Shown here in pieces: positions 1,243 through 62,468 of a DNA stretch of 64,000 nucleotides. The notes below the pieces were generated by a model. That model ran no database searches. It worked only from the letters and a program-made list of their open reading frames with translations, and was not told the origin of the DNA. The DNA lies in NCBI RefSeq assembly GCF_013122565.1, contig NZ_CP053258.1; one strand, given 5' to 3'. Origin of the DNA: Escherichia coli. Lineage in GTDB: Bacteria > Pseudomonadota > Gammaproteobacteria > Enterobacterales > Enterobacteriaceae. Position 1 is the first letter of the stretch. Each line of letters opens with the position of its first letter. The translations under genes and the position numbers were made by a program.

Positions 1243-1277
1243 ACGGCCCAGCATGCGAATGCCGGGCCGTTTTTTTA
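1243..1277. terminator. rho-independent terminator between convergent grpE and yfjD
   Basis: GC stem CGGCCC / GGGCCG around a 14-nt loop followed by TTTTTTT (1271-1277). Confidence 0.55.
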
Positions 1278-2561
1278 CTCCGCCACACTCTCGCGCAGCG
1301 GTTTCACAGGAAAAACTTTTACCTGCTTAATCATATTGTCCTGTACGTCGAGAATATCGATATCGTACTCGCCAATACGCACGCGGGTGCCAGCGACAGG
1401 GATCTCTTCCAGAGCTTCAAGAATGACGCCATTAACCGTGCGGGCATCGTCTTCAGGTAGATGCCAGTTAAAGGCTTTGTTGATTTCCCGCACGTTGGCG
1501 GTGCCATCGATAATCACCGAACCGTCGTTTTGCGGCGTGACCTCTTCGGCAAGTGTTGGCGACATCGACGTAGTAAAATCGCCGACAATCTCTTCCAGAA
1601 TATCTTCAACCGTCACCAGCCCCTGAATGTCTCCATACTCGTTGACGACCAGACCGACTTTCTTTTTGTTGCGCTGAAACTTCACCAACTGCGTGCTGAG
1701 CGGCGTACCTTCGGGCACAAAATAGATCTCGTCCGCGGCGCGCAGCATGGTTTCTTTGGTGAACTCTTTTTTCTCCGACATCAACCGCCAGGCTTCACGT
1801 ACTCGCAGCATACTGATGGCGTCGTCCAGCGAATCACGGTAGAGCACGATGCGCCCGTGAGGTGAGTGGGAGAGTTGGCGCAGAATCGATTTCCAGTCAT
1901 CGTTGATATCAATACCGATAATTTCACTGCGCGGAACCATGATGTCATCAACGGTCATTTTTTCCAGATCGAGCACCGACAGCAGCATATCCTGATTGCG
2001 ACGGGAAATTTGTGAGCGCGATTCGTGCACGATAGTGCGCAACTCTTCTTTGCTCAAAGAGCCGCTAACCACGATATCGGTTTTGATACCCATCATGCGC
2101 ATCAGCATACGGGTGATAGCATTCAGCAACCAGACCAGCGGCATCATCAAAATTTGCAGCGGAGCCAGCAGAAAACTACTCGGATAAGCGACTTTTTCCG
2201 GGTACAGCGCGGCAATGGTTTTCGGCAATACCTCAGCAAAAACCAGTACGACAAAAGTCAGCACACCAGTCGCAATTGCCACGCCCGCATCGCCGTACAA
2301 ACGCATCCCAACAATAGTGCCGAGCGCGGAGGCAAGAATATTGACCAGGTTATTGCCGATTAACACCAGGCTTATCAGGCGGTCTGGCTTACGCAGCAAT
2401 TTTTCGACGCGTTTGGCCGAGCGATTACCCTGTTTCGCCATATGTCGCAGACGATAGCGGTTGAGGGTCATCATTCCGGTTTCGGACCCGGAAAAATAGG
2501 CTGAAATGACCACCATGATGATCAGAATAATGATCAACGTAGTAGTAGAAATGTGTTCCAG
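1275..2561 (-). CDS. yfjD: CNNM/CorC-family inner-membrane Mg/Co efflux protein with CBS domains (YfjD/CorB)
   Basis: ORF track 1275..2537 (420 aa; track start is TTG). Frame remains open upstream; a CTG at 2561 preceded by AGGAG would give 428 aa, the length I recall for K-12 YfjD. Start codon uncertain (2516 ATG, 2537 TTG or 2561 CTG). Confidence 0.8.
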   Translation of the reverse strand: MEHISTTTLIIILIIMVVISAYFSGSETGMMTLNRYRLRHMAKQGNRSAKRVEKLLRKPDRLISLVLIGNNLVNILASALGTIVGMRLYGDAGVAIATGVLTFVVLVFAEVLPKTIAALYPEKVAYPSSFLLAPLQILMMPLVWLLNAITRMLMRMMGIKTDIVVSGSLSKEELRTIVHESRSQISRRNQDMLLSVLDLEKMTVDDIMVPRSEIIGIDINDDWKSILRQLSHSPHGRIVLYRDSLDDAISMLRVREAWRLMSEKKEFTKETMLRAADEIYFVPEGTPLSTQLVKFQRNKKKVGLVVNEYGDIQGLVTVEDILEEIVGDFTTSMSPTLAEEVTPQNDGSVIIDGTANVREINKAFNWHLPEDDARTVNGVILEALEEIPVAGTRVRIGEYDIDILDVQDNMIKQVKVFPVKPLRESVAE

Positions 2562-2581
2562 GGGAAACTCCTTTTCTGGGT

Positions 2582-3373
2582 TTAGCTGATTAACTGCTGG
2601 ACAATTCGGCTGCCGAAGTAGGCCAGTGTCAGAATTACCGCGCCCGCAACGTTAAACCAGACGACGCGGCGTCCACGCCATCCTTCATGGTAATGTCCCC
2701 ACAGCAGCACAATATAGACAAACCACGCCACGATAGAGAGCACAGCCTTGTCGATATTTTCCATGCTAAATAGGTTGTGCATGTAGAACAGGCCAGTGCA
2801 AAGCGTGAGCGTTAGCAGCACCACGCCAATCTGCGTGATGTGGAACATTTTACGCTCGATACTCATCAATGGCGGCATTTCCTGGTTAAATGCCAGCTTC
2901 TTGTTCTTCAGTTGGTAATCAATCCACGCCAGTTGCAGCGCGTACAGGGCGGCGATAATTAGCGTGGCATAGGAAAAGAGCGATAAGCCAATGTGCACCA
3001 GCATCCCAGGCGTTGCTTCCAGATGGGTGATGTATTCATTGGGCATGAAGGTCGCCAGCGCCAGGTTGATAAGCGCAAAGGCATAGACAATGGGTAGCAG
3101 CAACCAGCCACGATTGCGAGAAGCCACAATGGTCATTACCGTACAGATCATCAAACTGACCAATGAACCAACGTTCAGCAGGCTGAGGTTTTGTCCGCTA
3201 TCACCGTCGGGCAGGATGCGGGCTTCCAGAGCGATTGCGTGGCAGACCAGCGCAATGACCGCAGAAATAATAGCCATGCGTCGCCAGCCGCCGTTTTTTT
3301 GCAGCAGACCGGGAACAATCAGCGCAAGACTGACGGAGTAGGCGACAAGCGCGAGCAGAGCAAAAACGGGCAT
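2582..3373 (-). CDS. ypjD: inner membrane protein YpjD (cytochrome c assembly CcsA-like family)
   Basis: ORF track 2582..3448; internal ATG at 3373 gives MPVFALLALVAYSV... and 263 aa, matching YpjD as I recall it. Multi-pass hydrophobic protein. Confidence 0.82.
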   Translation of the reverse strand: MPVFALLALVAYSVSLALIVPGLLQKNGGWRRMAIISAVIALVCHAIALEARILPDGDSGQNLSLLNVGSLVSLMICTVMTIVASRNRGWLLLPIVYAFALINLALATFMPNEYITHLEATPGMLVHIGLSLFSYATLIIAALYALQLAWIDYQLKNKKLAFNQEMPPLMSIERKMFHITQIGVVLLTLTLCTGLFYMHNLFSMENIDKAVLSIVAWFVYIVLLWGHYHEGWRGRRVVWFNVAGAVILTLAYFGSRIVQQLIS

Positions 3374-21721: not shown

Positions 21722-21806
21722 CCTTAAAGAAGCGTTCTTTGAAGTGCTCACACAGATTGTCTGATAGAAAGTGAAAAGCAAGGCGTCTTGCGAAGCAGAC
21801 TGATAC

Positions 21807-21882
21807 GTCCCCTTCGTCTAGAGGCCCAGGACACCGCCCTTTCACGGCGGTAACAGGGGTTCGAATCCCCTAGGGGACGCCA
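21807..21882 (+). tRNA. gltW: tRNA-Glu (anticodon UUC) in the 16S-23S spacer
   Basis: GTCCCCTTCGTCTAGAGGCCCAGGACACCGCCCTTTCACGGCGGTAACAGGGGTTCGAATCCCCTAGGGGACGCCA, 76 nt ending CCA. Confidence 0.95.
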
Positions 21883-25506: not shown

Positions 25507-26805
25507 ATGGCTGAAAGTACTGTAACGGCAGACAGCAAACTGACAAGTAGTGATACTCGTCGCCGCATTTGGGCAATTGTGGGGGCCTCTTCAGGTAATC
25601 TGGTCGAGTGGTTCGATTTCTATGTCTACTCGTTCTGTTCACTCTACTTCGCCCACATCTTCTTCCCTTCCGGGAACACGACGACTCAACTACTACAAAC
25701 AGCAGGTGTTTTTGCTGCGGGATTCCTGATGCGCCCAATAGGCGGTTGGCTATTTGGCCGCATAGCCGATAAACATGGTCGCAAAAAATCGATGCTGCTA
25801 TCGGTGTGTATGATGTGTTTCGGCTCACTGGTAATCGCCTGTTTGCCTGGTTATGAAACAATCGGTACGTGGGCTCCGGCATTATTGCTTCTCGCGCGTT
25901 TATTTCAGGGATTATCCGTTGGCGGAGAATATGGCACCAGCGCCACCTATATGAGTGAAGTTGCCGTTGAAGGGCGCAAAGGTTTTTACGCATCATTTCA
26001 GTATGTGACGTTGATCGGCGGACAACTGCTAGCCCTACTGGTTGTCGTGGTTTTACAACACACCATGGAAGACGCTGCACTCAGAGAGTGGGGATGGCGT
26101 ATTCCTTTCGCGTTAGGAGCTGTGTTAGCTGTTGTGGCGTTGTGGTTACGTCGTCAGTTAGATGAAACTTCGCAACAAGAAACGCGCGCTTTAAAAGAAG
26201 CTGGATCTCTGAAAGGATTATGGCGCAATCGCCGTGCATTCATCATGGTTCTCGGTTTTACCGCTGCGGGCTCCCTTTGTTTCTATACCTTCACCACTTA
26301 TATGCAGAAGTATCTGGTAAACACTGCGGGAATGCATGCCAACGTGGCGAGTGGCATTATGACTGCCGCATTGTTTGTATTTATGCTTATTCAACCACTC
26401 ATTGGCGCGCTGTCGGATAAGATTGGTCGCCGTACCTCAATGTTATGTTTCGGTTCGCTGGCAGCCATTTTTACCGTTCCTATTCTCTCAGCATTGCAAA
26501 ACGTTTCCTCGCCTTATGCCGCTTTTGGTCTGGTGATGTGTGCCCTGCTGATCGTGAGTTTTTATACTTCAATCAGTGGAATACTGAAGGCTGAGATGTT
26601 TCCCGCACAGGTTCGTGCATTAGGTGTTGGTCTGTCATATGCGGTCGCCAATGCTATATTTGGTGGTTCGGCGGAGTACGTAGCGTTGTCGCTGAAATCA
26701 ATAGGAATGGAAACAGCCTTCTTCTGGTATGTGACCTTGATGGCCGTGGTGGCGTTTCTGGTTTCTTTGATGCTACATCGCAAAGGGAAGGGGATGCGTC
26801 TTTAG
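25507..26805 (+). CDS. kgtP: alpha-ketoglutarate:H+ symporter KgtP (MFS)
   Basis: ORF track 25405..26805; ATG at 25507 gives [41 protein letters not shown]..., 432 aa. Confidence 0.93.
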
Positions 26806-27125
26806 TGACGGGTCAGTTGCCAGACGGTATAGCCGGTGCTTGCACCGGCGACATCCCAGGCCAAATCTTTCCAGCTCCAGCCGCTCCCTTCGGGGCGGCT
26901 ATCCCAAAGCTCTTTTGACGCCCCCAGACTGACAGAGAACATCAATCCAAACATGGCACTGCGATCCCGGCTCATCCCCTGATGCTGTGAATATTCATTT
27001 CCGGCGGCGGAAAGCATCGCCGAGGCGATAAAGTGTTGAGCTTTATCCTGCCCGCTCCAGCTATCGTTAGCCATATGGCTGCATCCAGAAAGTAACAATA
27101 GCGAACAGACAAAAAGAATACGCAA
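26802..27125 (-). CDS. yfiM: lipoprotein YfiM (DUF2279)
   Basis: ORF track 26802..27146 (TTG). A second TTG at 27125 is preceded by GGAGG at 7-nt spacing and gives (M)[15 protein letters not shown]..., 107 aa. Start uncertain. 3' end overlaps kgtP stop by 4 nt (convergent). Confidence 0.75.
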
Positions 27126-27170
27126 AACGTGGCCTCCAAAAAACAAACCCCGTACAGGACGGGGTTGTGA

Positions 27171-52484: not shown

Positions 52485-52692
52485 ATCTTTCCTCGCGATG
52501 AAATAGTGGCGACAACAGGCAATATGAGACAAACGCGAGTGAATTTTATATTCCATTGCCGCTAATTGCCATGAATTAAAAATTCCAGTTAGCCATGATG
52601 CGGTCGATTGTTGCCGGAAAAGTGATGATCTATCTGTTAGGCTATGTAGTAGCGAAAATTAATCAGGATGTTTCAGTCCAGAGGAGTATGGT

Positions 52693-53328
52693 TTGGCAAC
52701 TCACGAGCGTCGTGTGGTGTTTTTTGACTTAGATGGAACATTGCATCAGCAGGATATGTTCGGCAGTTTTTTGCGTTATTTACTGCGTCGCCAACCGCTG
52801 AATGCGTTGCTTGTCCTGCCGTTGTTGCCGATCATAGCCATTGCGTTATTGATAAAAGGCCGTGCGGCACGCTGGCCGATGAGTCTGCTTCTGTGGGGAT
52901 GCACTTTTGGTCACAATGAAGCGCGTTTGCAGGCGTTGCAGGCCGATTTCGTACGCTGGTTTCGTGACAATGTTACCGCCTTTCCGCTGGTTCAGGAGCG
53001 ATTAACCACCTACCTGTTAAGTTCCGATGCTGATATCTGGTTGATTACCGGCTCTCCGCAGCCGCTGGTTGAAGCGGTTTATTTTGATACGCCCTGGCTG
53101 CCGCGGGTTAATCTTATCGCCAGTCAGATTCAGCGTGGCTATGGTGGTTGGGTATTGACGATGCGTTGCCTCGGGCATGAGAAGGTCGCGCAACTGGAGC
53201 GTAAAATCGGCACGCCACTGCGGTTGTACAGTGGCTATAGCGACAGTAATCAGGACAATCCGCTGCTTTATTTCTGTCAGCATCGTTGGCGAGTAACCCC
53301 GCGCGGTGAACTCCAGCAACTGGAATAG
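52693..53328 (+). CDS. pgpC: phosphatidylglycerophosphatase C (HAD family), TTG start
   Basis: 211-aa ORF (M)ATHERRVVFFDLDGTLHQQ... with HAD motif DLDGT; TTG start at 52693 preceded by GAGGAG. Confidence 0.88.
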   Translation: MATHERRVVFFDLDGTLHQQDMFGSFLRYLLRRQPLNALLVLPLLPIIAIALLIKGRAARWPMSLLLWGCTFGHNEARLQALQADFVRWFRDNVTAFPLVQERLTTYLLSSDADIWLITGSPQPLVEAVYFDTPWLPRVNLIASQIQRGYGGWVLTMRCLGHEKVAQLERKIGTPLRLYSGYSDSNQDNPLLYFCQHRWRVTPRGELQQLE

Positions 53329-53340
53329 AGTAAAGCATAG

Positions 53341-55442
<2,102 letters not shown>

Positions 55443-59920: not shown

Positions 59921-60104
59921 AGTGGCTCATTCACCGACTTATGTCAGCCCCTTCGGGACGTGCTACATAAAATTCGAATGACGCACAACAAGGTGCCTGC
60001 CGTCCAACTTCTGATATCAGCGTAGCTATATCAACCATCGGGCGAAACGTCGAGTTAGGCACCGCCTTATTCCATAACAAAGCCGGGTAATTCCCGGCTT
60101 TGTT
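59921..60104 (+). ncRNA. glmY: small RNA GlmY
   Basis: Predicted start about 12 nt after sigma54 -12 GC; ends at strong terminator ACAAAGCCGGG-TAATT-CCCGGCTTTGT (60077-60103) followed by TGTATCT; about 184 nt. 5' and 3' ends approximate. Confidence 0.7.
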
Positions 60105-60162
60105 GTATCTGAACTTCCCCTCGGTTAGCATCAGGCTATTCGCGTCTGACGAGAGTAACACC

Positions 60163-61590
60163 TTGAAACGCTGGCCCGTTTTTCCCCGCTCATTACGACA
60201 ACTGGTAATGCTGGCATTTTTGCTGATTCTGCTGCCCCTGTTGGTGCTGGCATGGCAAGCCTGGCAAAGCCTGAATGCGCTTAGCGACCAGGCGGCGCTG
60301 GTCAACCGCACCACGCTTATCGATGCCCGGCGCAGTGAAGCGATGACCAACGCGGCGCTGGAGATGGAGCGTAGCTACCGTCAGTATTGCGTGCTGGATG
60401 ACCCTACGCTTGCGAAGGTTTATCAAAGCCAGCGCAAGCGTTACAGCGAAATGCTCGATGCCCACGCAGGCGTACTGCCAGACGATAAACTTTACCAGGC
60501 ATTGCGTCAGGATTTGAACAATCTGGCCCAACTTCAGTGTAACAACAGTGGTCCCGATGCTGCCGCCGCCGCGCGTCTTGAAGCCTTTGCCAGTGCCAAT
60601 ACCGAAATGGTGCAGGCCACGCGCACAGTGGTGTTCTCTCGTGGGCAGCAACTTCAGCGTGAAATCGCCGAACGTGGGCAATATTTTGGTTGGCAATCGC
60701 TGGTGCTATTTCTGGTGAGTCTGGTGATGGTGCTACTTTTCACGCGGATGATTATCGGGCCGGTGAAAAATATTGAACGGATGATCAATCGGTTGGGGGA
60801 AGGGCGTTCTCTGGGCAATAGCGTTTCGTTCAGTGGACCGAGCGAGTTACGCTCGGTTGGGCAACGTATTCTTTGGTTAAGTGAGCGCCTGTCATGGCTG
60901 GAATCCCAACGCCATCAATTTTTAAGACATTTATCTCATGAATTAAAAACGCCACTGGCGAGTATGCGCGAGGGCACTGAATTACTGGCCGATCAGGTTG
61001 TCGGGCCGCTTACGCCAGAGCAAAAAGAGGTGGTGAGCATTCTTGATAGCAGCAGCCGCAATTTGCAAAAACTGATCGAACAACTGCTTGATTACAACCG
61101 TAAACAGGCGGACAGTGCGGTGGAACTGGAGAATGTTGAATTAGCACCGCTGGTGGAGACAGTGGTTTCTGCTCATAGCCTGCCCGCACGGGCTAAAATG
61201 ATGCATACCGACGTCGATCTCAAAGCAACAGCTTGCCTGGCGGAGCCAATGCTGCTGATGAGCGTACTGGATAATCTTTACTCCAATGCGGTGCACTACG
61301 GGGCTGAATCCGGTAACATTTGCCTTCGCAGCAGTTTACATGGTGCGCGGGTTTATATTGATGTCATCAATACAGGCACACCCATTCCGCAAGAGGAACG
61401 CGCCATGATCTTCGAACCCTTTTTTCAGGGAAGCCACCAGCGAAAAGGGGCGGTGAAGGGCAGCGGTCTGGGATTAAGCATTGCCAGGGATTGTATTCGC
61501 CGTATGCAAGGGGAACTGTATCTGGTCGACGAGAGCGGGCAAGACGTTTGTTTCCGCATTGAATTGCCGTCGTCGAAAAACACGAAATAA
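60163..61590 (+). CDS. glrK: sensor histidine kinase GlrK (QseE/YfhK)
   Basis: ORF track 60100..61590 begins inside the GlmY terminator; TTG at 60163 gives (M)KRWPVFPRSLRQLVMLAFLLILLP..., 475 aa; HAMP, H-box HELKTPL and ATPase domain. Confidence 0.85.
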   Translation: MKRWPVFPRSLRQLVMLAFLLILLPLLVLAWQAWQSLNALSDQAALVNRTTLIDARRSEAMTNAALEMERSYRQYCVLDDPTLAKVYQSQRKRYSEMLDAHAGVLPDDKLYQALRQDLNNLAQLQCNNSGPDAAAAARLEAFASANTEMVQATRTVVFSRGQQLQREIAERGQYFGWQSLVLFLVSLVMVLLFTRMIIGPVKNIERMINRLGEGRSLGNSVSFSGPSELRSVGQRILWLSERLSWLESQRHQFLRHLSHELKTPLASMREGTELLADQVVGPLTPEQKEVVSILDSSSRNLQKLIEQLLDYNRKQADSAVELENVELAPLVETVVSAHSLPARAKMMHTDVDLKATACLAEPMLLMSVLDNLYSNAVHYGAESGNICLRSSLHGARVYIDVINTGTPIPQEERAMIFEPFFQGSHQRKGAVKGSGLGLSIARDCIRRMQGELYLVDESGQDVCFRIELPSSKNTK

Positions 61591-61754: not shown

Positions 61755-62468
61755 ATGCGACACATTTTTCAACGATTATTGCCCCGACGGCTGTGGCTGG
61801 CAGGGCTGCCATGTCTGGCATTGCTGGGTTGCGTGCAGAGTCACAATAAGCCAGCCATTAATACGCCAGCAGAAGAAAAAATTCCGGTTTATCAACTGGC
61901 TGACTATCTTTCTACTGAATGTAGCGACATCTGGGCGCTGCAAGGTAAATCAACCGAAACCAATCCGCTTTACTGGCTGCGGGCGATGGATTGTGCTGAT
62001 CGTTTAATGCCTGCGCAGTCGCGTCAGCAAGCTCGCCAATATGACGACGGCAGCTGGCAAAATACCTTTAAACAAGGGATTTTGCTCGCCGACGCCAAAA
62101 TTACGCCGTATGAGCGCCGCCAGCTGGTCGCGCGTATTGATGAGTTAAGTACCGAGATCCCGGCACAGGTTCGCCCTCTGTATCAACTCTGGCGCGACGG
62201 TCAGGCGCTGCAACTGCAACTGGCGGAAGAGCGCCAACGCTACGGCAAGCTCCAGCAATCCAGCGACAGCGAGCTGGATACATTGCGCCAGCAACATCAC
62301 GTTCTACAGCAGCAACTGGAACTCACCACCCGCAAGCTGGAAAACCTGACCGATATTGAACGCCAGCTCTCGACCCGCAAACCGGCTGGAAATTTCTCGC
62401 CGGATACGCCGCACGAGGGTGAAAAGCCCGCGCCATCCACCCATGAGGTCACTCCTGATGAGCCATAA
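61755..62468 (+). CDS. qseG: outer-membrane lipoprotein QseG (YfhG)
   Basis: ORF track 61590..62468; ATG at 61755 gives MRHIFQRLLPRRLWLAGLPCLALLGCVQ... with lipobox, 237 aa. Confidence 0.85.
   Translation: MRHIFQRLLPRRLWLAGLPCLALLGCVQSHNKPAINTPAEEKIPVYQLADYLSTECSDIWALQGKSTETNPLYWLRAMDCADRLMPAQSRQQARQYDDGSWQNTFKQGILLADAKITPYERRQLVARIDELSTEIPAQVRPLYQLWRDGQALQLQLAEERQRYGKLQQSSDSELDTLRQQHHVLQQQLELTTRKLENLTDIERQLSTRKPAGNFSPDTPHEGEKPAPSTHEVTPDEP

What the first reader, a model, noticed from the sequence alone, without database searches (positions are those of the whole stretch)
2535..2563. Several genes here need non-ATG or downstream starts that the ORF track misplaces
By RBS placement and recalled protein lengths, the likely starts are: yfjD CTG at 2561 (track: TTG 2537); yfiM TTG at 27125 with GGAGG 7 nt upstream (track: 27146); pgpC TTG at 52693; tadA TTG at 53386 (track: ATG 53353); glrK TTG at 60163 (track: ATG 60100, inside the glmY terminator). 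Elsewhere the track over-extends to upstream in-frame ATGs (rpsP, aroF, kgtP, yfiF, grcA, yfiE, trmN6, rpoE, rseA, pdxJ, yfhL, yfhH, qseG, glrR, ypjD, yfiL, tapT). A CTG start for yfjD is unusual and the least certain.
Basis: partly seen in the sequence, partly recalled or inferred. Interest (0 to 1): 0.3.

Follow-up and report, generated by a model that had tools for sequence, protein, structure and literature searches.

The report
Known non-ATG gene starts, correctly recalled

Summary
The window is E. coli chromosome, 98-99% identical to K-12 MG1655 2.687-2.751 Mb and reversed. All five proposed starts coincide exactly with the curated NC_000913.3 starts: yfjD CTG 2561, yfiM TTG 27125, pgpC TTG 52693, tadA TTG 53386, glrK TTG 60163. 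PGAP also carries the 428-aa CTG form of YfjD. EcoGene 3.0 (PMC3531124) reports that start-codon mutagenesis confirmed the yfjD CTG, and that mutating TTG codon 9 (2537) had no effect.

My comparative tests agree. In 79 Enterobacteriaceae species the yfjD start codon is CTG 36, TTG 30, GTG 13, behind a conserved AAGGA(G), while codon 9 is an ordinary Leu codon. The tadA, pgpC, glrK and yfiM positions hold a canonical start codon in every genus sampled; pgpC in E. lignolyticus is GTG one codon over. The rival upstream codons lie in a conserved TATAAT box (tadA) or in terminator hairpins (glrK, yfiM).

Verdict: observation confirmed, interpretation supported, already known, low interest.

Minor by-products: yfjD never uses ATG, and CTG tends to pair with a stronger SD, which is suggestive but not significant after tree correction. 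Salmonella's 183-aa TadA annotation looks over-extended.

The parts
1275..2561 (-). yfjD coding sequence, 428 codons plus stop, a CNNM/CBS/CorC_HlyC transporter, starting at CTG 2561-2559
   Evidence: Coincides with NC_000913.3 b4461. PGAP calls the same 1287 nt. Pfam CNNM 11-184, CBS, CorC_HlyC.
2559..2561 (-). CTG initiation codon of yfjD
   Evidence: The homologous codon is CTG 36, TTG 30, GTG 13 in 79 species. EcoGene 3.0 mutagenesis.
2568..2573 (-). Shine-Dalgarno AAGGAG, 6 nt before the CTG
   Evidence: AAGGA(G/A/C/T) is conserved, mostly at 5-7 nt spacing, across species.
2535..2537 (-). TTG, codon 9 of yfjD (Leu), the longest-ORF start and not the real one
   Evidence: It is TTG in only 7 of 79 species and otherwise CTG/CTC/CTA/CTT/TTA. 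Mutating it had no effect.
2582..2584 (-). ypjD stop codon TAA, 20 nt upstream of the yfjD CTG
   Evidence: The spacer is 12-30 nt in 73 of 79 species.
26802..27125 (-). yfiM coding sequence, 107 codons plus stop, a lipoprotein ([15 protein letters not shown]), starting at TTG 27125
   Evidence: The homologous codon is ATG in 3 genera and GTG in 1. 67 of 120 called orthologues are 107 aa, and a lipobox Cys at residue 15 was found in 67.
27133..27137 (-). GGAGG Shine-Dalgarno, 7 nt before yfiM TTG
27146..27166 (-). pssA intrinsic terminator stem; the rival TTG 27146-27144 sits at its 3' edge and T-tract
   Evidence: Terminator scan and fold.
52693..53328 (+). pgpC coding sequence, 211 codons plus stop, starting at TTG 52693 after GAGGAG 52681-52686
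   Evidence: TTG in 7 of 8 genera, with an in-frame stop 2 codons upstream in 4. The HAD domain starts at residue 9.
53386..53889 (+). tadA coding sequence, 167 codons plus stop, starting at TTG 53386 after GGAG 53374-53377
   Evidence: The homologous codon is TTG in 5 and GTG in 3 of 8 genera. E. coli TadA structures use this form.
53349..53355 (+). TATAATG: a perfect -10-like hexamer whose last bases form the rival ATG 53353
   Evidence: GTATAATGC is invariant in 8 genera although the spacer to the start varies by 32, 33 or 34 nt, which puts the ATG out of the tadA frame in 4 of 8. The consensus promoter scan did not call it because the -35 is weak.
60163..61590 (+). glrK coding sequence, 475 codons plus stop, starting at TTG 60163
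   Evidence: TTG is invariant in 8 of 8 genera.
59921..60107 (+). glmY sRNA and its terminator hairpin (60074-60107); the rival TTG 60100 lies in the 3' arm
   Evidence: Rfam GlmY 59921-60068, 147 bits. K-12 glmY maps to 59921-60104 and the hairpin folds at -23.4 kcal/mol.

Best explanation
yfjD, a CNNM/CorB-type transporter, initiates at the near-cognate codon CTG 2561. A full AAGGAG Shine-Dalgarno lies 6 nt upstream and the stop of the preceding gene ypjD lies 20 nt upstream. The TTG eight codons downstream is an internal leucine codon. yfiM, pgpC, tadA and glrK each initiate at a TTG preceded by an SD-like sequence. The longer ORFs seen for yfiM, tadA and glrK are artefacts of a first-start-after-stop rule: they run back into the pssA terminator, a conserved TATAAT box and the glmY terminator respectively. 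Shown here: the codon positions, agreement with the curated record, and cross-species conservation. Taken from the literature: the mutagenesis proof for yfjD. Inferred: that CTG gives low YfjD output, that coupling to ypjD helps initiation, and that TATAAT is the tadA promoter.
For: The curated NC_000913.3 starts map exactly to 2561 CTG, 27125 TTG, 52693 TTG, 53386 TTG and 60163 TTG. PGAP carries the 1287-nt yfjD. EcoGene 3.0 states that the CTG was confirmed by start-codon mutagenesis and fusions, and that mutating TTG codon 9 had no effect. yfjD in 79 species: codon 1 is always NTG; residues 2-8 (EHISTTT) are near-invariant with synonymous third-position changes; 76 of 79 have no canonical in-frame start upstream; 68 of 79 have an in-frame stop within 12 codons; codon 9 is CTC/CTA/CTT/TTA in 22 and CTG in 50. 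tadA: the start position is TTG or GTG in 8 of 8 genera, and the upstream ATG is out of frame in 4 of 8. pgpC: TTG in 7 of 8, with a stop 2 codons upstream in 4. glrK: TTG in 8 of 8, with upstream stops or frame changes. yfiM: ATG/ATG/ATG/GTG in other genera, with the lipobox Cys at residue 15. The rival starts for yfiM and glrK lie in terminator hairpins.
Against: I obtained no direct initiation-site data (Ribo-RET, N-terminal peptides) for any of the five genes; the supplements were not held. The yfjD experiment is cited as unpublished results within a database paper. CTG is a poor initiator, 1-2% of AUG in reporters, so some initiation elsewhere cannot be excluded from sequence alone. The tadA, pgpC and glrK comparisons rest on 8 genera and the yfiM comparison on 5. 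The consensus scan did not call a promoter at the tadA TATAAT.
Confidence: 0.93

Rival explanations
1. yfjD starts at the canonical TTG 2537, giving a 420-aa protein, as the longest-ORF rule says; the upstream 8 codons are untranslated leader.
For: TTG is a canonical start and CTG is about 1-2% as efficient as AUG. The ORF list gives 2537. The Pfam CNNM domain begins at residue 11 of the long form, so a 420-aa protein would still hold the whole domain.
Against: Codon 9 is a codon that cannot initiate (CTC/CTA/CTT/TTA) in 22 of 79 species and is TTG in only 7. The 8 upstream codons are conserved as protein with synonymous changes. The SD lies 30 nt from 2537 but 6 nt from 2561. Mutating this TTG had no effect on expression.
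Confidence: 0.03
2. tadA is translated, wholly or partly, from ATG 53353, giving a 178-aa protein with an [11 protein letters not shown] extension, as many RefSeq orthologues are annotated (Salmonella 183 aa).
For: It is an ATG with an open frame in E. coli, Salmonella, Buttiauxella and E. lignolyticus. Many database orthologues are called at 176-183 aa, and PDB 3ocq is the 183-aa Salmonella form.
Against: There is no SD before 53353. The ATG is part of an invariant GTATAATGC. The spacer to the conserved TTG/GTG differs by 1 nt between genera, so all three frames occur: the tadA frame reads TAA there in Enterobacter kobei, Kosakonia and Pseudescherichia, and Pluralibacter is in a third frame. 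The only conserved 'residues' of the extension (M, GV) coincide with the TATAATG and GGAGT DNA motifs. The curated K-12 record uses TTG.
Confidence: 0.06
3. Dual initiation: one or more of these genes make two isoforms from both candidate starts.
For: Alternative in-frame starts are known in E. coli; ClpB/ClpB80 is annotated in this very window and Ribo-RET found more. Nothing here measures initiation directly.
Against: The second candidate codon is not conserved as a start codon in any of the five cases. Those of yfiM and glrK are buried in strong hairpins.
Confidence: 0.05

Closest known systems
Curated E. coli K-12 MG1655 annotation (NC_000913.3 / EcoGene / EcoCyc) of yfjD b4461, yfiM b2586, pgpC b2560, tadA b2559, glrK b2556
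   Same: Identical start positions and start codons for all five genes, and for the 17 genes listed as over-extended.
   Different: Nothing differs at the start codons. The window is another strain, 98.1-98.9% identical to K-12.
[quoted passage not shown]
   Same: A near-cognate CTG decoded as the initiator, predicted from conservation plus ribosome-binding site and tested by start-codon mutagenesis.
   Different: I did not examine hda. Whether yfjD's CTG has a regulatory role is unknown.
infC AUU start (IF3 autoregulation through discrimination against a non-canonical start codon); this comparison is from my own knowledge and was not tested
   Same: A weak non-canonical start codon maintained by selection rather than replaced by AUG.
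   Different: No autoregulatory loop is known or suggested for yfjD. The yfjD codon drifts among CTG, TTG and GTG between genera.

Membership tests
Genuine CTG-initiated bacterial gene (like hda) | The codon at the proposed start is a near-cognate NTG in orthologues, and the upstream sequence is not conserved as protein | tested here: met
   CTG 36, TTG 30, GTG 13 in 79 species. 76 of 79 have no canonical in-frame start upstream, and 68 of 79 have a stop within 12 codons.
Genuine CTG-initiated bacterial gene (like hda) | A Shine-Dalgarno sequence at functional spacing | tested here: met
   AAGGAG lies 6 nt upstream in the window. The spacing is 5-7 nt in 35 of 36 CTG species, and the mean anti-SD duplex is -8.1 kcal/mol.
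Genuine CTG-initiated bacterial gene (like hda) | Codons between the CTG and the next canonical start are under protein-coding constraint | tested here: met
   EHISTTT is near-invariant with synonymous variation (CAC/CAT, ATC/ATT/ATA, TCN, ACN).
Genuine CTG-initiated bacterial gene (like hda) | Expression depends on the CTG and not on the downstream canonical codon | not testable with these tools
   Reported as confirmed by mutagenesis and fusions in EcoGene 3.0, citing unpublished data.
HlyC/CorC (CNNM/CorB) transporter, YfjD | CNNM (DUF21) transmembrane domain plus CBS plus CorC_HlyC | tested here: met
   PF01595 8e-54 (residues 11-184), PF00571, PF03471.
YfiM family lipoprotein | A signal peptide with a lipobox Cys about 15-20 residues from the start | tested here: met
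   [16 protein letters not shown] lipobox Cys at residue 15 was found in 67 of the 120 called orthologues. PF10043.
TadA tRNA adenosine(34) deaminase, 167-aa form | A deaminase domain beginning a few residues after the start; the start position conserved as a start codon | tested here: met
   PF00383 and PF14437 start at residues 7-8. TTG or GVG-type start (TTG 5, GTG 3) in 8 of 8 genera. E. coli structure 1z3a and the TadA variants use this form.
PgpC (HAD phosphatase) | The DxDxT motif close to the N-terminus | tested here: met
   MATHERRVVFFDLDGT. The HAD profile starts at residue 9.
GlrK sensor kinase | HAMP-HisKA-HATPase_c architecture, downstream of glmY | tested here: met
   Pfam. GlmY RF00128 lies immediately upstream.

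The most novel reading that the evidence does not exclude
The yfjD start is held weak by selection. Across 79 Enterobacteriaceae species the start codon changed at least 9 times among CTG, TTG and GVG-free set CTG/TTG/GTG but is never ATG, and the weakest codon (CTG) tends to be paired with a full AAGGAG SD while TTG and GTG pair with AAGGAA/C/T. This would mean the output of this CNNM/CorB-type transporter is tuned to a narrow low level, with SD strength compensating for start-codon strength.
Probability: 0.3. Interest if true: 0.3.

Novelty: already known. Interest (0 to 1): 0.08.

Why it matters
It matters little for biology. The starts are already correct in the reference annotation and, for yfjD, in PGAP.

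It is useful as a calibration: a reader working from sequence and memory reproduced curated starts that a longest-ORF track gets wrong.

There are two small practical consequences:
- Automatic annotations of TadA in Salmonella and several other genera (176-183 aa, also the construct of PDB 3ocq) probably carry 9-13 spurious N-terminal residues read from promoter and 5'UTR DNA.
- yfjD is a clean natural example of a CTG start that is conserved across genera and interchanges only with TTG and GTG.

Tried and rejected
- **Ribo-RET:** no supplementary tables are held for Meydan et al. (bioRxiv 10.1101/520783), and its main text names none of the five genes.
- **TRAINSPOTTER N-terminomics (PMC13245402):** none of the genes is mentioned.
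- **Literature on the yfjD start codon:** only EcoGene 3.0 is relevant.
- **Consensus promoter scan at tadA:** it found nothing because the -35 is poor (TAGAGT, 3 of 6). The -10 reading therefore rests on invariance of GTATAATGC, not on the scan.
- **Terminator scan at the glmY 3' end:** it found nothing, but folding gives a 14-bp hairpin at -23.4 kcal/mol.
- **Klebsiella TadA (P0066):** not on record for a DNA look-up.
- **Automated extrapolation of homologous starts:** it failed for yfiL (variable signal peptide), and my rimM anchor matched only one locus. glrR looked anomalous until inspected by eye, where it is a one-codon shift.
- **SD/start-codon covariation:** the raw Mann-Whitney test gives p = 7e-11. 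It shrinks to 6 of 8 independent contrasts, p = 0.14, once shared ancestry is allowed for, so I do not claim it.
- **Pfam domain boundary of YfjD:** it does not discriminate between the 428-aa and 420-aa forms.

Full report
**What the window is.** BLAST against complete E. coli genomes finds the region around the finding in 5425 of 5426 genomes, annotated ffh / yfjD / ypjD. Against K-12 MG1655 the whole window aligns in two blocks, reversed, at 98.1% and 98.9% identity to about 2,687,261-2,751,335. I took the curated K-12 feature table for that stretch and mapped every annotated start onto the window base by base.

**The observation.** On the minus strand the sequence reads ...TAA(ypjD stop, 2584-2582) ACCCAGA AAGGAG TTTCCC CTG(2561) GAA CAC ATT TCT ACT ACT ACG TTG(2537) ATC ATT.... 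The mechanical ORF list starts yfjD at TTG 2537, giving 420 aa. No ATG/GTG/TTG lies in frame upstream of 2561 before a stop. The other four sites are also as described:
- yfiM: TTG 27125 with GGAGG 7 nt upstream; longest ORF from TTG 27146.
- pgpC: TTG 52693 after GAGGAG.
- tadA: TTG 53386 after GGAG; longest ORF from ATG 53353.
- glrK: TTG 60163; longest ORF from 60100.

- 60100 is TTG, not ATG.
- pgpC's TTG is already the longest-ORF start.
- The 17 over-extended ORFs begin with ATG in only 7 cases (TTG in 8, GTG in 2).
- Five more over-extended genes were not listed: rimM, clpB, pssA, shoB, yfiS.

**Agreement with what is already annotated.** All five proposed starts equal the curated K-12 starts, codon for codon: yfjD CTG (428 aa), yfiM TTG (107 aa), pgpC TTG (211 aa), tadA TTG (167 aa), glrK TTG (475 aa). 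All 17 listed genes are indeed shorter in K-12 than their longest ORF. PGAP, in a strain 99.3% identical to the window, also calls yfjD at 1287 nt, which is the CTG form. The EcoGene 3.0 paper (PMC3531124) says that hda was the first E. coli gene shown to start with CTG. [quoted passage not shown] That TTG at codon 9 is window 2537. So the headline item of the finding is published knowledge.

**Independent test of yfjD.** One scan of species-representative genomes returned 80 Enterobacteriaceae loci, with tblastn matches reaching residue 1 in nearly all. In the 79 usable loci:
- The codon aligned to the E. coli CTG is CTG in 36, TTG in 30 and GTG in 13, never ATG.
- Residues 2-8 (EHISTTT) are almost invariant, with synonymous third-position variation.
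- 76 of 79 have no canonical in-frame start further upstream.
- 68 of 79 have an in-frame stop within 12 codons.
- Codon 9 is TTG in only 7 loci and otherwise CTG 50, CTC 11, CTA 6, CTT 4, TTA 1, so it behaves as an ordinary leucine codon.

An AAGGA(G/A/C/T) motif sits mostly 5-7 nt before codon 1. The ypjD stop lies 12-30 nt upstream in 73 of 79 loci, and 20 nt upstream in the window. This is consistent with an operon and possible translational coupling, although six CTG species have spacers of 104-159 nt. The Pfam CNNM domain begins at residue 11 of the 428-aa form, which does not discriminate between the two starts.

**tadA.** A search with the long 178-aa form showed that many database orthologues are called at 176-183 aa with an N-terminal extension, including Salmonella at 183 aa, which is also the PDB 3ocq form. 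Others are called at 163-170 aa, and the E. coli structures use the 167-aa form. I fetched DNA from seven more genera and laid it out in register:
- The position of E. coli TTG 53386 is TTG in 5 and GTG in 3 of the 8 genera, with a GGAG upstream in every one.
- The rival ATG 53353 is the end of an invariant GTATAATGC.
- The distance from that motif to the start codon is 32, 33 or 34 nt in different genera, so all three frames occur.
- The tadA frame reads GTA-TAA there in Enterobacter kobei, Kosakonia and Pseudescherichia, and Pluralibacter is in a third frame.
- The only 'conserved residues' of the extension (M, GV) are the TATAATG and GGAGT motifs read as protein.

The extension is therefore non-coding. 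It most likely comprises a -10 box and a 5'UTR, although that reading is an inference: the consensus promoter scan did not call it because the -35 is weak.

**pgpC.** TTG is conserved in 7 of 8 genera, and E. lignolyticus has GTG one codon over. It follows a GAGGAG/AAGGAG-type SD. In four genera the upstream gene's stop lies in frame two codons before it. The downstream GTG GTG of E. coli is GTC/GTT/GTA/ATC elsewhere.

**glrK.** TTG is invariant in 8 of 8 genera within a conserved TTGAA context. The upstream sequence has indels that are not multiples of three, and Buttiauxella and Kosakonia have in-frame stops 12-13 codons upstream. The rival TTG 60100 lies in the 3' arm of the glmY terminator hairpin: Rfam GlmY matches 59921-60068, K-12 glmY maps to 59921-60104, and the hairpin 60074-60107 folds at -23.4 kcal/mol.

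**yfiM.** The homologous position is ATG in Enterobacter kobei, Pluralibacter and Cronobacter and GTG in Salmonella bongori, each after a GGAG-type SD. Of the 120 called orthologues, 67 are 107 aa, and a lipobox Cys at residue 15 was found in 67. The rival TTG 27146 is at the 3' edge of the pssA terminator stem, 27166-27146.

**The over-extension list.** With the loci in hand, the K-12 start position is ATG in every usable locus for ypjD (75/75), rpsP (65/65), aroF (46/46), pdxJ, yfhL and yfhH (7/7 each), and qseG and kgtP (3/3 each). In-frame stops occur inside the E. coli-length extension in many of them. For glrR the other genera start at an ATG one codon upstream (445 aa), where E. coli has CTG-ATG (444 aa). 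yfiL was inconclusive. For yfiF, grcA, yfiE, yfiC, rpoE, rseA and tapT I have only the agreement with the curated record.

**Mechanism.** Established knowledge is that initiator tRNA can decode near-cognate NUG codons. Reporter measurements put CUG at about 1-2% of AUG (0.02-3% in other constructs), against 10-100% for GUG and UUG (Hecht et al., bioRxiv 10.1101/063800). I infer that yfjD is translated at a low level from CTG, helped by a strong, well-spaced SD and perhaps by ribosomes terminating 20 nt upstream at ypjD. This was not measured here.

**A by-product.** CTG starts pair with a full AAGGAG in 31 of 36 species by motif search, whereas none of the 43 TTG/GTG starts do. Mean anti-SD duplex energy is -8.1 versus about -6.0 kcal/mol, Mann-Whitney p = 7e-11. 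On an NJ tree of the rest of the gene, each trait changed at least 8 times and the joint state at least 10 times. Only 6 of 8 independent contrasts go the predicted way, p = 0.14. The pattern, and the complete absence of ATG despite at least 9 start-codon changes, is suggestive of selection for a weak start, but it is not demonstrated.

**Verdict.** Novelty: already known. Interest: low.

Noticed in passing
window 2559-2573 (-); loci L004-L083 at the yfjD start: The yfjD start codon is never ATG in 79 species (CTG 36, TTG 30, GTG 13, at least 9 changes). CTG tends to pair with a full AAGGAG SD plus CCC before the codon, while TTG and GTG pair with AAGGAA/C/T. The raw test is significant (p = 7e-11), but only 6 of 8 tree-independent contrasts agree (p = 0.14).
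   Followed up: partly
L084 10001-10552 (Salmonella tadA); also L086, L087, L089; window 53349-53385: RefSeq and PDB (3ocq) carry TadA forms of 176-183 aa in Salmonella and other genera. Their 9-13 extra N-terminal residues appear to be a translated TATAAT box plus 5'UTR, because the spacer length varies by 1 nt between genera and all three frames occur. These annotations are probably over-extended.
   Followed up: partly
window about 52640-52692; L084 7069-9337, L085 7032-9144, L087 7049-9325, L090 7034-9301: Salmonella, Enterobacter, Buttiauxella and Pseudescherichia have a SIS-domain (MurQ-like) gene and a PTS EIIBC (MurP-like) gene between yfhH and pgpC. E. coli lacks them here but keeps roughly 50-60 nt that align with the 3' end of the PTS gene (TTAGGCTAT...CCAGAGGAG), which now supplies the pgpC SD.
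   Followed up: no
window 62455-62460; L084-L090 at the glrR start: The glrR start is shifted by one codon in E. coli (CTG-ATG, 444 aa) relative to seven other genera (ATG-ACN/ATA, 445 aa). An additional in-frame ATG lies 5 codons upstream (62443) without an SD.
   Followed up: partly
window 21786-21807: This is the only break in the alignment to K-12. About 106 nt just downstream of tRNA-Glu gltW in the rrnG 16S-23S spacer of K-12 correspond to about 20 nt in the window, i.e. rRNA spacer heterogeneity between strains.
   Followed up: no
L088 16363-16963 (Kosakonia); L086 7484-8087 (Pluralibacter): Small toxin-antitoxin-like gene pairs are inserted in otherwise syntenic intergenic regions: PhdYeFM/ParE between purL and glrK in Kosakonia, and Gp49/HTH_37 between yfhL and yfhH in Pluralibacter.
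   Followed up: no
window 60120-60135; L084-L090 upstream of glrK: A conserved CCTCAGTTAGCAT element lies about 30-40 nt upstream of the glrK TTG, between the glmY terminator and glrK, in 8 genera. It may be a glrK-proximal promoter or another signal.
   Followed up: no
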